Origin: Escherichia coli
GTDB lineage: Bacteria; Pseudomonadota; Gammaproteobacteria; Enterobacterales; Enterobacteriaceae
Strand: one strand, 5' to 3'
NCBI RefSeq assembly: GCF_003334765.1
Contig: NZ_QOWT01000029.1
DNA length: 51,807 nucleotides
Shown here: in pieces, positions 5,186-24,790 of the stretch
Layout of the letters: each line of letters begins with the position of its first letter
How positions within the stretch are numbered: the first letter of the stretch is position 1
Notes under the pieces: generated by a model
What the model was told of the DNA's origin: nothing
The model's database searches: none
The model's input: only the letters and a program-made list of their open reading frames with translations
Program-made: the position numbers and the translations under genes

Positions 5186-6055
5186 ATGGATCAGGCCGGC
5201 ATTATTCGCGACCTTTTAATCTGGCTGGAAGGTCATCTGGATCAGCCCCTGTCGCTCGACAATGTAGCGGCGAAAGCAGGTTATTCCAAGTGGCACTTAC
5301 AGAGAATGTTTAAAGATGTCACTGGCCATGCTATTGGCGCGTATATTCGTGCTCGTCGTTTGTCGAAATCGGCGGTCGCACTACGCCTGACTGCGCGTCC
5401 GATTCTGGACATCGCGCTGCAATACCGCTTCGACTCTCAACAGACATTTACCCGCGCATTCAAGAAGCAGTTTGCCCAGACTCCTGCACTTTACCGCCGT
5501 TCTCCTGAATGGAGCGCCTTTGGTATTCGCCCGCCGCTACGTCTGGGTGAATTCACAATGCCAGAGCACAAATTTGTCACCCTGGAAGATACGCCGCTGA
5601 TTGGTGTTACCCAGAGCTACTCCTGTTCGCTGGAGCAAATCTCTGATTTCCGCCATGAAATGCGTTATCAGTTCTGGCACGATTTTCTCGGCAACGCGCC
5701 GACCATTCCGCCGGTGCTCTACGGCCTGAATGAAACGCGTCCGAGTCAGGATAAAGACGACGAACAAGAGGTATTCTATACCACCGCGTTAGCCCAGGAT
5801 CAGGCAGATGGCTATGTACTGACAGGGCATCCGGTGATGCTGCAGGGCGGCGAATATGTGATGTTTACCTATGAAGGTCTGGGAACCGGCGTGCAGGAGT
5901 TTATCCTGACGGTATACGGAACGTGCATGCCAATGCTCAATCTGACGCGCCGTAAAGGTCAGGATATTGAGCGATACTACCCGGCAGAAGACGCCAAAGC
6001 GGGAGATCGCCCAATTAATCTGCGCTGTGAACTGCTGATTCCTATCCGCCGTTAA
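5186..6055 (+). CDS. rob: AraC/XylS-family transcriptional regulator Rob
   Basis: 289-aa ORF with N-terminal dual HTH AraC domain and GyrI-like C-terminal domain. Confidence 0.95.
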   Translation: MDQAGIIRDLLIWLEGHLDQPLSLDNVAAKAGYSKWHLQRMFKDVTGHAIGAYIRARRLSKSAVALRLTARPILDIALQYRFDSQQTFTRAFKKQFAQTPALYRRSPEWSAFGIRPPLRLGEFTMPEHKFVTLEDTPLIGVTQSYSCSLEQISDFRHEMRYQFWHDFLGNAPTIPPVLYGLNETRPSQDKDDEQEVFYTTALAQDQADGYVLTGHPVMLQGGEYVMFTYEGLGTGVQEFILTVYGTCMPMLNLTRRKGQDIERYYPAEDAKAGDRPINLRCELLIPIRR

Positions 6056-6699
6056 CGCTGCAGCTCATCTAATGCAGGGGCGTCCAGATGCGAGATGTCC
6101 CCTGCGGTTTCAACGACCCAGCCAGACGCCAGCCACAGGCTTTCCTGATAATCCACGCGCGAAATAGAACAGTTACGTAGACGTAAGCGGCGCTCTGCCC
6201 ATGCTGGTAATCCGAGAATCGTACTCACCAGACATCCCAGTGCAATACCATGGCTCACCAGCAGCGGTCGGCTTCCCTGCGGTAAGTCCCGGCAAGATTC
6301 CAGTGCCGCATTGACGCGATCGCTGAGCTCCTGCATTGACTCGCCTTCAGGAATACGCCCGTCAACGGTGCCATTGACCAGCTGCCGACGCCAGTTCTCT
6401 TCTTCTTCGGTCAGAGAATCGATATGTCTTTTTTCCAGCACACCCATGTTTAATTCACGCAGGCGAGAATCAAAGATGATGTCACAGCCGCAGGCCTGGG
6501 CGATGATTTCCGCCGTACGCCGGGTGCGTCCTAAATCGCTACTGATAATATGCGTAATGCCAAGCTCTTTGGCACGGGTTGCCACCTGCATCGCCTGTTG
6601 CTCACCTTTGGCGGTCAGCGGGCTGTCAGACTGGCCCTGAATACGTCGCTCGGCGTTCCACTGCGTTTCACTGTGGCGGACTAGGTATACCTGTAACAT
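6052..6699 (-). CDS. gpmB: Histidine-phosphatase-family phosphoglycerate mutase-like protein GpmB
   Basis: 215-aa ORF with RHSET/RHG histidine phosphatase motif (LVRHSETQWN); stop overlaps rob stop. Confidence 0.93.
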   Translation of the reverse strand: MLQVYLVRHSETQWNAERRIQGQSDSPLTAKGEQQAMQVATRAKELGITHIISSDLGRTRRTAEIIAQACGCDIIFDSRLRELNMGVLEKRHIDSLTEEEENWRRQLVNGTVDGRIPEGESMQELSDRVNAALESCRDLPQGSRPLLVSHGIALGCLVSTILGLPAWAERRLRLRNCSISRVDYQESLWLASGWVVETAGDISHLDAPALDELQR

Positions 6700-6738: not shown

Positions 6739-7272
<534 letters not shown>

Positions 7273-7356
7273 GACGGATAAGGCGTTCACGCCGCATCCG
7301 GCATTCGGTGCACGATGCCTGATGCGACGCTGCCGCGTCTTATCAGGCCTACAAAA
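7273..7356. repeat. REP element pair (BIME) filling the yjjX-trpR gap
   Basis: GCCGCATCCGGCA ... GCCTGATGCGACGC ... CTTATCAGGCCTACA palindromic units. Confidence 0.75.
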
Positions 7357-11595: not shown

Positions 11596-11752
11596 AATGC
11601 CGGATGCGGCGTGAACGCCTTATCCGGCCTACAAACCAAGAAATTTCAATACGTTGTGAATCTCCAGGCCTGATAAGACGCGGTAAGCGTCGCATCAGGC
11701 ATTGAGCACCGAATGCCGGATGCGGCGTGAACACCTTTTCCGGTCTACAACA
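11596..11752. repeat. BIME cluster of several REP units
   Basis: Repeated GCCGGATGCGGCGTGAACGCCTTATCCGGCCTACA and GCCTGATAAGACGCG...CGCATCAGGC units. Confidence 0.8.
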
Positions 11753-24671: not shown

Positions 24672-24790
24672 CATGCCGGATGTGGCCTACAGTTCGGCAC
24701 AGACTTGTAGGCATGATAAGACGCGTCAAGCGTCGCATCAGGCATTGTGCGCCAACTGCCGGATGCGGCGTGAACGCCTTATCCGGCCTA
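24672..24790. repeat. BIME/REP cluster between yjjW and yjjV
   Basis: GCCGGATGTGGCCTACA, GATAAGACGCG...CGCATCAGGC, GCCGGATGCGGCGTGAACGCCTTATCCGGCCTACA; last unit overlaps the yjjV stop codon. Confidence 0.75.

What the first reader, a model, noticed from the sequence alone, without database searches (positions are those of the whole stretch)
6052..6055. Convergent rob and gpmB share a palindromic TTAA stop
rob (+) ends TAA at 6053-6055 and gpmB (-) ends with its TAA read from 6054 down to 6052, so both stop codons are embedded in one TTAA. With zero intergenic space, transcription or translation termination of each gene must occur inside the other, implying mutual 3' antisense overlap.
Basis: seen in the sequence. 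Interest (0 to 1): 0.15.

Follow-up and report, generated by a model that had tools for sequence, protein, structure and literature searches.

The report
Ordinary 4-bp tail-to-tail gene overlap
The E. coli genes rob and gpmB, on opposite strands, do end in one shared TTAA and their RNAs do run into each other, but this is the commonest kind of tail-to-tail gene overlap and this pair's overlapping transcripts are already in published data.

Summary
That is a 4-bp CDS overlap, not a zero gap, and it is annotated the same way in K-12 and in the 100%-identical strain 300709.

Both stops are genuine. Each protein matches its NCBIfam equivalog end to end. The overlap is kept in 75 of 80 Enterobacteriaceae species, using only the four tetramers that are silent in both genes (TTAA 53, TTAG 11, CTAG 7, CTAA 4).

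The inference of mutual 3' antisense overlap is supported by published data:
- RNA-seq operon maps put the rob 3' end about 156 nt inside gpmB and the gpmB 3' end about 141 nt inside rob, a 300-nt overlap.
- A bicyclomycin-sensitive Rho termination region lies 220 nt past the rob stop.
- An RNase III-cut 21-bp sense/antisense duplex at 6068-6090 ranks 11th of 1,225 in exponential phase.

None of this is unusual. YTAR tetramers are the modal convergent overlap, and 75% of E. coli convergent operons overlap at their 3' ends, by 286 nt on average.

The one small new item is a 7-bp GC stem (6074-6105), 18 nt after the rob stop. It is kept by compensatory synonymous changes, and its function is untested.

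Verdict: real, ordinary, already known.

The parts
5186..6055 (+). rob (robA) CDS, 289 aa, an AraC/XylS-family regulator. Last codons are CGC CGT TAA.
   Evidence: ORF list. Identical to K-12 Rob and to PDB 7vwy over 1-289. NF011701 equivalog matched 1-289/289 at 589 bits against a cut-off of 426. RefSeq annotation.
6052..6699 (-). gpmB (ytjC) CDS, 215 aa, histidine-phosphatase superfamily. Last codons are CAG CGT TAA. This allele carries G10S.
   Evidence: ORF list. NF002901 equivalog matched 1-215/215 at 452.6 bits against a cut-off of 261. RefSeq annotation. The C-terminus ..QR* is found in all 75 species compared.
6052..6055 (.). Shared TTAA holding both stop codons: rob TAA at 6053-6055 and gpmB TAA read from 6054 to 6052. 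It is the core of the 8-bp palindrome CGTTAACG (6050-6057).
   Evidence: Sequence. The same -4 overlap occurs in 75 of 80 species, as TTAA 53, TTAG 11, CTAG 7 and CTAA 4.
6056..6275 (+). rob 3' UTR and read-through, antisense to the last ~220 nt of gpmB. The RNA-seq 3' end is at about 6211 and the peak of the Rho termination region is at about 6275.
   Evidence: Conway terminator 4632308 (U00096.2), quoted in Huang Table S1d. Adams Supplementary file 2: 4634221 (-), Rho score 5.02. No intrinsic terminator-like site. C/G ratio 1.17-1.29, locally up to 1.76.
5911..6051 (-). gpmB 3' UTR, antisense to the last ~141 nt of rob.
   Evidence: Conway terminator 4632608 (+) for the ytjC unit, overlap length 300, class 'Convergent'. 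No terminator-like site. No conserved structure: RNAalifold gives -1.3 kcal/mol.
6074..6105 (+). Conserved stem-loop with a 7-bp outer stem GCAGGGG/CCCCUGC and an 18-nt loop. It starts 18 nt after the rob stop, inside gpmB codons AGD...APA. Which strand it acts on is undecided.
   Evidence: MFE fold. It is the only consensus helix RNAalifold predicts. 43 compensatory cells against 4.1 in shuffles, 0/500. It is the only perfect 7-bp stem in gpmB. Its 6-bp cores are intact in 59/75 species read rob-sense and 50/75 read gpmB-sense.
6068..6090 (.). RNase III-generated 21-bp sense/antisense duplex from paired gpmB mRNA and rob 3' UTR.
   Evidence: Huang Table S3: UCUGGACGCCCCUGCAUUAGA 13,933 reads and UAAUGCAGGGGCGUCCAGAUG 1,138 reads, 11th of 1,225. 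Exact sequence match to the window.

Best explanation
This is an ordinary, evolutionarily frozen 4-bp tail-to-tail overlap of two unrelated genes.

Why it is frozen. Both proteins end in Arg (CGT) followed by TAA, so the two ends interlock as CGTTAACG. Of the 12 possible single-base changes in TTAA, only two are silent in both genes: T6052 to C and A6055 to G. The other ten each destroy at least one of the two stops. For the outer positions that means a 31-codon extension of Rob or a 25-codon extension of GpmB. Purifying selection on the two C-termini is therefore enough to hold the arrangement, and it allows drift only among TTAA, TTAG, CTAA and CTAG.

What follows for the RNAs. There is no spacer and no intrinsic terminator on either strand, so RNA polymerase leaving each gene transcribes the antisense strand of the other.
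- rob transcripts continue about 150-220 nt into gpmB and are stopped by Rho acting on the untranslated, moderately C-rich RNA.
- gpmB transcripts end about 140 nt inside rob; the mechanism there is not established.
- The roughly 300-nt complementary tails pair, and RNase III cuts the duplex.
- The main cut site lies in rob's 3' UTR but inside the gpmB coding region, 13-36 nt before the gpmB stop. Any cost should therefore fall mainly on gpmB mRNA.

Shown: the anatomy, the conservation, the absence of terminators, the published 3' ends, Rho dependence of the rob-sense read-through, and the dsRNA. Inferred: that selection on the C-termini alone maintains the overlap, and that the RNA pairing is a by-product rather than a selected regulator.
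For: Anatomy and annotation.

Full-length equivalog matches for both proteins, and Rob identical to the solved full-length protein.

Conservation: 75 of 80 species keep exactly -4 and use only the four doubly silent tetramers.

Stop-loss extensions of +31 codons (rob) and +25 codons (gpmB).

No terminator-like site near the junction. Folding of both flanks is not significant, with z between -0.2 and -1.6.

Published transcript data: 300-nt overlap of the mapped operons; Rho score 5.02 at 220 nt past the rob stop; abundant RNase III duplex at 6068-6090.

The class is well described. YTAR tetramers define the 4-bp convergent overlap, 58 convergent overlaps were counted in E. coli, and only 20% of the genes involved have rho-independent terminators (PMC2174442). 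75% of convergent operons overlap, by 286 nt on average (PMC4161252).

The overlap is dispensable in some lineages. An ERIC-like insertion of 146 or 70 bp, or a 7-bp or 4-bp duplication, separates the genes in three Buttiauxella species and one Siccibacter species, and both ORFs stay intact.
Against: The duplex is unusually abundant for a 3' overlap. Huang et al. report that dsRNA density in 3' overlaps is on average 37.9-fold lower than in 5' overlaps, yet this duplex ranks 11th.

A GC stem just after the rob stop is kept by compensatory synonymous changes. That hints at selection on RNA and not only on protein.

The Adams data sets held here list no Rho region or 3' end for the gpmB-sense strand, so half of the termination picture rests on a single RNA-seq map, read second-hand.

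Conservation could be examined only within Enterobacteriaceae (GpmB at least 81% identical to the window's).
Confidence: 0.85

Rival explanations
1. Excludon-like coupling. The zero-spacer arrangement is selected because read-through from rob pairs with the 3' end of gpmB mRNA. RNase III then cuts inside the gpmB ORF, so gpmB expression is tuned inversely to rob transcription.
For: Abundant RNase III duplex located inside the gpmB ORF but outside the rob ORF. dsRNA cluster E-299 spans the junction. The arrangement is conserved in 75 of 80 species. A conserved stem lies next to the cut site.
Against: The conservation is fully explained by the coding constraint, since only doubly silent tetramers are seen. 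Spacers of 3-146 bp are tolerated in four species. 75% of convergent operons overlap without any known function. No expression data seen here link rob and gpmB levels.
Confidence: 0.15
2. The conserved 7-bp GC stem at 6074-6105 is a functional RNA element of the rob transcript. It could be a 3'-end protective stem-loop left after Rho termination and exonuclease trimming, or a pause hairpin of the kind proposed for collision-driven termination between convergent genes.
For: It is the only consensus helix in the 135-nt alignment. 43 compensatory cells against 4.1 in shuffles, 0/500, and 0-7 in the slid controls. It is the only perfect 7-bp stem in the 648-nt gene. Its 6-bp cores are intact in 59/75 species read rob-sense and 50/75 read gpmB-sense. 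The double changes occur in several separate genera (alignment). It starts 18 nt after the rob stop, whereas nothing comparable follows the gpmB stop.
Against: No Term-seq 3' end is reported at the stem in the Adams tables, and the mapped rob 3' end lies about 100 nt further on. The tail after the stem is not U-rich, with 2-4 T in 8 nt. G-U against A-C counts do not decide the strand (37 against 29). The RNAalifold covariation term is small (-0.22). Pair 38:59 is broken in 14 of 76 sequences. The shuffle control does not correct for phylogeny.
Confidence: 0.3
3. Annotation artefact: one of the two genes really ends elsewhere, so there is no true overlap.
For: None was found.
Against: A stop codon is unambiguous once the frame is known. 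Both frames are fixed by full-length equivalog matches, by the solved Rob protein 1-289, and by conservation of both C-termini to the last residue in 75 species.
Confidence: 0.01

Closest known systems
4-bp convergent (tail-to-tail) stop-stop overlaps using CTAA/TTAA/CTAG/TTAG (Lillo & Krakauer 2007, Biol Direct 2:22, PMC2174442)
   Same: Identical configuration: two genes on opposite strands whose stop codons interlock in a YTAR tetramer. All four tetramers named in the paper occur at this locus across species.
   Different: Nothing in kind. Added here are the locus-specific conservation record and the Arg-Arg context that makes an 8-bp palindrome.
Overlapping convergent operons of E. coli (Conway et al. 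2014, mBio, PMC4161252)
   Same: rob and ytjC are listed as convergent units overlapping by 300 nt, close to the genome average of 286 nt.
   Different: Most such pairs have an intergenic spacer and often a leaky terminator. Here there is no spacer at all, so the overlap is obligatory and does not result from inefficient termination.
Rho-dependent termination of untranslated or antisense RNA (Peters et al. 2012 and Dar & Sorek 2018, as cited in Adams et al. 2021, PMC7815308)
   Same: Bicyclomycin-sensitive read-through on the rob-sense strand 220 nt past the stop, classed 'antisense' like 51.5% of the Rho regions in that study.
   Different: The terminated RNA is the 3' tail of a bona fide mRNA, not a spurious antisense transcript. 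Rho dependence of the gpmB-sense tail is not documented.
Excludon / RNase III processing of overlapping UTRs (Listeria and S. aureus concept; p19-captured dsRNAs in E. coli, Huang et al. 2020, PMC7373196)
   Same: Complementary transcripts from neighbouring genes form dsRNA that RNase III cuts.
   Different: Classical excludons involve long 5' or 3' UTRs with demonstrated mutually exclusive expression. No such reciprocal regulation is known for rob and gpmB.
Bidirectional terminators between convergent genes (Ju et al. 2019; Wang et al., bioRxiv 10.1101/2022.10.23.513370)
   Same: A convergent pair with a hairpin-forming palindromic segment near the junction.
   Different: That class sits in an intergenic overlap region and gives sharp 3' ends for both genes. 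Here the hairpin lies inside the gpmB ORF, upstream of the gpmB stop, so it cannot terminate gpmB. In addition, rob read-through is Rho-dependent, whereas that class is described as Rho-independent.

Membership tests
4-bp convergent stop-stop overlap | Two protein-coding genes on opposite strands, 3' ends facing each other | tested here: met
   ORFs and RefSeq annotation. Equivalog matches for both proteins.
4-bp convergent stop-stop overlap | Both stop codons contained in one YTAR tetramer (TTAA, TTAG, CTAA or CTAG) | tested here: met
   TTAA at 6052-6055. Only these four tetramers are seen in 75 species.
4-bp convergent stop-stop overlap | Both stops are the real ends of the proteins | tested here: met
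   Profiles are covered to their last position: 289/289 and 215/215. PDB 7vwy matches 1-289. C-termini are conserved. No C-terminal proteomics was seen.
Overlapping convergent operons (complementary 3' transcript ends) | Mapped RNA 3' ends of each unit lie beyond the 3' end of the other | tested here: met
   Published map read from Huang Table S1d: T 4632308 (rob unit), T 4632608 (ytjC unit), overlap 300 nt. The original Conway supplement is not held.
Intrinsic (rho-independent) or bidirectional terminator | GC-rich hairpin followed by a U-tract downstream of each stop | tested here: not met
   No terminator-like site within the junction region on either strand. The stem at 6074-6105 is followed by only 2-4 T in 8 nt. 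No conserved structure after the gpmB stop.
Rho-dependent terminator | Read-through increases when Rho is inhibited by bicyclomycin | tested here: met
   Met for the rob-sense strand only. Reads were 228 upstream and 49 downstream without BCM, and 164 and 177 with BCM, giving a score of 5.02 and p = 3.9e-19. No entry exists for the gpmB-sense strand.
Rho-dependent terminator | C-rich, G-poor untranslated RNA (rut-like) upstream of the termination region | tested here: inconclusive
   C/G is 1.17-1.29 overall and up to 1.76 in 50-nt windows on the rob-sense strand. On the gpmB-sense strand it is 0.8-1.35 in the first 100 nt and reaches 2.33 only about 150 nt further on.
Excludon | Overlapping transcripts form dsRNA processed by RNase III | tested here: met
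   p19-captured 21-bp duplex and cluster E-299.
Excludon | Mutually exclusive or inverse expression of the two genes caused by the overlap | not testable with these tools
   Needs expression measurements in rnc, rob-promoter and spacer-insertion mutants. None was found in the papers read.

The most novel reading that the evidence does not exclude
The interlocked ends and the conserved GC stem 18 nt after the rob stop could form a selected RNA-level module. In this reading, read-through from rob is shaped by the stem and by Rho, pairs with the last ~150 nt of gpmB mRNA, and directs RNase III to cut gpmB just upstream of its stop. GpmB output would then be set by rob transcription throughout the Enterobacteriaceae.
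Probability: 0.12. Interest if true: 0.35.

Novelty: already known. Interest (0 to 1): 0.1.

Why it matters
It matters little. The locus is a clean textbook example of how two stop codons interlock, and of why a convergent pair without a spacer must produce complementary 3' tails that Rho and RNase III then deal with.

Its practical value is as a well-documented case, with operon maps, BCM data and a p19 dsRNA hotspot. It could serve as a test bed for one open question: does obligatory 3' overlap have a regulatory cost or benefit? The experiment would insert a terminator-containing spacer at CGTTAACG.

The conserved synonymous-site stem is a minor new lead. The G10S change in the catalytic RHG motif of this strain's GpmB may mean that the enzyme is impaired in a small E. 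coli lineage.

Tried and rejected
1. Intrinsic or bidirectional terminator at the junction. The pattern scan found none and the folds are not significant. Rejected.

2. Conserved RNA structure after the gpmB stop. RNAalifold gives -1.3 kcal/mol, so there is nothing there.

3. Deciding which strand uses the 6074-6105 stem from G-U against A-C counts. The counts are 37 against 29, which is undecidable.

4. Term-seq support for a 3' end at the stem. None appears in the Adams tables. The supplements of Dar & Sorek 2018 and of Conway 2014 are not held, and Ju et al. 2019 is not held.

5. Tracing the overlap beyond Enterobacteriaceae.
- The genome scan kept only the best 80 loci, all with GpmB at least 81% identical.
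- The search for homologous proteins listed only close relatives.
- In the 50%-identity representative library all orthologues collapse into one cluster.
- Two fragment hits gave a frameshifted contig and a rob-creAB deletion.
The phylogenetic depth therefore stays undetermined.

6. Misannotated stop. Rejected.

7. Rfam families at the junction. None; the only hits in the window are three naRNA4/REP elements and one tRNA elsewhere.

Full report
**What is in the sequence**

Positions 6050-6057 read CGTTAACG. The ORF list gives rob at 5186..6055 on the plus strand (289 aa) and gpmB (ytjC) at 6052..6699 on the minus strand (215 aa). Both genes end CGT-TAA.

The spacing is a 4-bp CDS overlap and not 'zero'. 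T6052 also closes rob's last Arg codon, and A6055 pairs with the last base of gpmB's last Arg codon. This is why the 8-mer is a perfect palindrome.

The window is E. coli. It is 100% identical over 2.4 kb to strain 300709, and the region is present in 5,421 of 5,426 complete genomes. RefSeq annotates the same overlap in K-12 (ytjC 4633797..4634444, rob 4634441..4635310) and in strain 300709.

**Are the stops real?**

Rob is identical to K-12 Rob and to the full-length protein in PDB 7vwy. Rob covers the NCBIfam equivalog NF011701 from 1 to 289 of 289. GpmB covers NF002901 from 1 to 215 of 215. Both score far above the curated cut-offs.

A scan of one genome per species returned 80 Enterobacteriaceae loci. 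A script located both stops in each locus. 75 of the 80 have exactly the -4 overlap. In those 75, GpmB always ends ..QR* and Rob ends ..RR* in 68.

**Why it is conserved**

Across the 75 species the tetramer is TTAA (53), TTAG (11), CTAG (7) or CTAA (4), and never anything else. These are exactly the states reachable by the only two substitutions that are silent in both genes:
- First position T to C: Arg CGT to CGC in one gene, and TAA to TAG in the other.
- Fourth position A to G: the mirror image.

Each of the other ten single-base changes destroys at least one of the two stops. At the outer positions this extends Rob by 31 codons or GpmB by 25 codons. Purifying selection on two C-termini therefore explains the conservation without any selection on the overlap itself.

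The overlap can be lost without harm to either ORF:
- Siccibacter colletis has a 7-bp duplication, giving a gap of +3.
- Buttiauxella agrestis has TAATTAA, giving a gap of 0.
- B. brennerae and B. warmboldiae carry 146-bp and 70-bp inserts flanked by a duplicated TTAACGACGT.
- The longer insert matches the ERIC2 and ERIC1R primer sequences at 19/22 and 17/22 positions. The primer sequences were recalled from memory.

**Is it more than chance?**

As a class, no. [quoted passage not shown] For convergent pairs they name exactly CTAA, TTAA, CTAG and TTAG. They counted 58 convergent overlaps in E. coli, and only 20% of the genes involved had rho-independent terminators. Their tables imply that about 36% of 1,890 convergent overlaps are 4 nt or shorter.

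Within the 50,000 window bases covered by the annotation call, rob/gpmB is the only one of 10 convergent pairs without a spacer. The others have gaps of 37-160 bp.

**Where do the transcripts end?**

No terminator-like hairpin with a T-run lies near the junction on either strand. The 100-150 nt after each stop do not fold better than shuffled sequence (z from -0.2 to -1.6).

Published data fill the gap. Huang et al. 2020 (PMC7373196), Table S1d, lists dsRNA cluster E-299 at 4632313-4632995 ('rob ytjC'). Beside it the table quotes the Conway et al. 2014 operon map:
- The rob unit runs from promoter 4633375 to terminator 4632308 on the minus strand.
- The ytjC unit runs from promoter 4631692 to terminator 4632608 on the plus strand.
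- The pair is classed 'Convergent' with an overlap length of 300.

Those coordinates are U00096.2, which at this locus equals NC_000913.3 minus 1977. Window position equals 4640496 minus the NC_000913.3 coordinate. The conversion was verified by exact sequence matches. So the rob RNA ends near window 6211, 156 nt past its stop, and the gpmB RNA ends near 5911, 141 nt past its stop.

Adams et al. 2021 (PMC7815308), Supplementary file 2, lists a Rho termination region at 4634221 (-), 'antisense ytjC'. Without bicyclomycin there were 228 reads upstream and 49 downstream. With bicyclomycin there were 164 and 177. The Rho score is 5.02 and p = 3.9e-19. This is window 6275, 220 nt past the rob stop. 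The intervening RNA is moderately C-rich, with C/G of 1.17-1.29 and up to 1.76 locally. No comparable entry exists for the gpmB-sense strand.

**Do the tails pair?**

Yes. Huang Table S3 lists a 21-bp duplex. The gpmB-sense strand is UCUGGACGCCCCUGCAUUAGA (13,933 reads) and the rob-sense strand is UAAUGCAGGGGCGUCCAGAUG (1,138 reads). It is the 11th most abundant of 1,225 such duplexes in exponential phase, ranked among known sense/antisense RNA pairs.

The two strands map exactly to window 6068-6088 (-) and 6070-6090 (+). The cut site is 13-36 nt upstream of the gpmB stop inside its ORF, but lies in the rob 3' UTR. Any cost should therefore fall on gpmB. This last point is an inference and has not been shown.

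**How unusual is that?**

Conway et al. found that 276 of 370 convergent operons give complementary 3' ends, overlapping by 286 nt on average. The 300-nt overlap here is typical.

The abundance of the duplex is the only mildly atypical feature. Huang et al. report that 3' overlaps carry on average 37.9-fold less dsRNA than 5' overlaps.

**A small new observation**

On the rob-sense strand, window 6074-6105 forms a stem-loop with a 7-bp GC-rich outer stem, GCAGGGG/CCCCUGC, and an 18-nt loop. It starts 18 nt after the rob stop.

Evidence that it is conserved, from a 76-sequence alignment:
- RNAalifold predicts this helix and no other.
- 91.9% of cells are paired.
- Four pairs show changes on both sides.
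- There are 43 compensatory cells, against 4.1 in column shuffles (0 of 500 reach the observed value) and 0-7 in the slid controls.
- In the outer stem the varying pairs (columns 35:62 and 38:59) join third codon positions of gpmB (Ala/Pro and Gly/Ala).
- The double changes occur in several separate genera.
- It is the only perfect 7-bp stem in the 648-nt gene.
- Its 6-bp cores stay intact in 59 of 75 species read rob-sense and in 50 of 75 read gpmB-sense.
- Nothing comparable follows the gpmB stop.

Evidence against a function:
- The tail is not U-rich.
- No Term-seq 3' end is reported at the stem.
- The strand that uses it cannot be decided.
- The RNAalifold covariation term is small.
- The shuffle control ignores phylogeny.

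I rate a functional RNA element at about 0.3. The leading idea is a 3'-end protective stem for Rho-terminated rob mRNA. The second is a pause hairpin as in the collision model for convergent genes.

**Verdict**

However, the configuration is the standard 4-bp convergent overlap. The transcript overlap, Rho dependence and dsRNA at this exact locus are already in published data sets, and the conservation needs no explanation beyond the coding constraint. It is already known and of low interest.

Noticed in passing
window 6670-6672 (gpmB codon 10, minus strand): This strain's GpmB reads RHSETQWN where K-12 and all 75 other species compared read RHGETQWN. This G10S change sits in the catalytic RHG motif of the histidine-phosphatase superfamily and is the only difference from K-12 GpmB. 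The exact protein sequence is on record on only 9 contigs. The enzyme may be impaired.
   Followed up: partly
window 6074-6105 (+): GC-rich 7-bp stem kept by compensatory synonymous changes across Enterobacteriaceae. It is the only such stem in gpmB and starts 18 nt after the rob stop. Its function is unknown.
   Followed up: yes
L070:3149-3294, L078:3149-3218, L076:3140-3155, L041:3140-3160: In Buttiauxella an ERIC-like palindromic element (146 bp, or a 70-bp remnant) sits exactly at the rob/gpmB junction. It is flanked by a duplicated TTAACGACGT, so both ORFs stay intact. B. agrestis has TAATTAA, possibly an excision footprint. Siccibacter colletis has a 7-bp duplication, CGTTAGC.
   Followed up: partly
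window ~5394 (+), inside rob: Published Term-seq 3' end internal to rob: K-12 4635102 (-), 208 nt into the ORF. It was found in two growth conditions, with a Rho score of 0.65 and an intrinsic-terminator score of 2.3 (Adams et al. 2021). A terminator-like hairpin with a T-run lies just upstream, at 5336-5363.
   Followed up: no
window 6038 (+) and 5765 (-): Two published start sites lie near the junction. Dornenburg et al. report a TSS 15 nt before the rob stop codon on the rob-sense strand (RNA starts ATTCC..., 8 reads, -10 match 3/6). Thomason et al. report an antisense TSS inside rob on the gpmB-sense strand. Both are listed with dsRNA cluster E-299 and may add to the dsRNA beyond simple read-through.
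   Followed up: no
window 7272-7349 (+), 11667-11745 (-), 24710-24788 (-): Three naRNA4 (REP-type) elements. The first fills the 84-bp spacer of the neighbouring convergent pair yjjX/trpR, in contrast to the spacer-less rob/gpmB pair.
   Followed up: no
L085:3001-4076 (GCA_030128215.1): A genome in which gpmB is truncated to 198 aa and is followed directly by creC and creD. rob, creA and creB are missing, so a deletion begins at or near the junction.
   Followed up: no
L054 (Citrobacter koseri NCTC10786): gpmB carries a frameshift (the locus is 1 bp longer and the ORF ends early at TGA), and the rob match is also partial. This is either a pseudogene or an assembly error.
   Followed up: no
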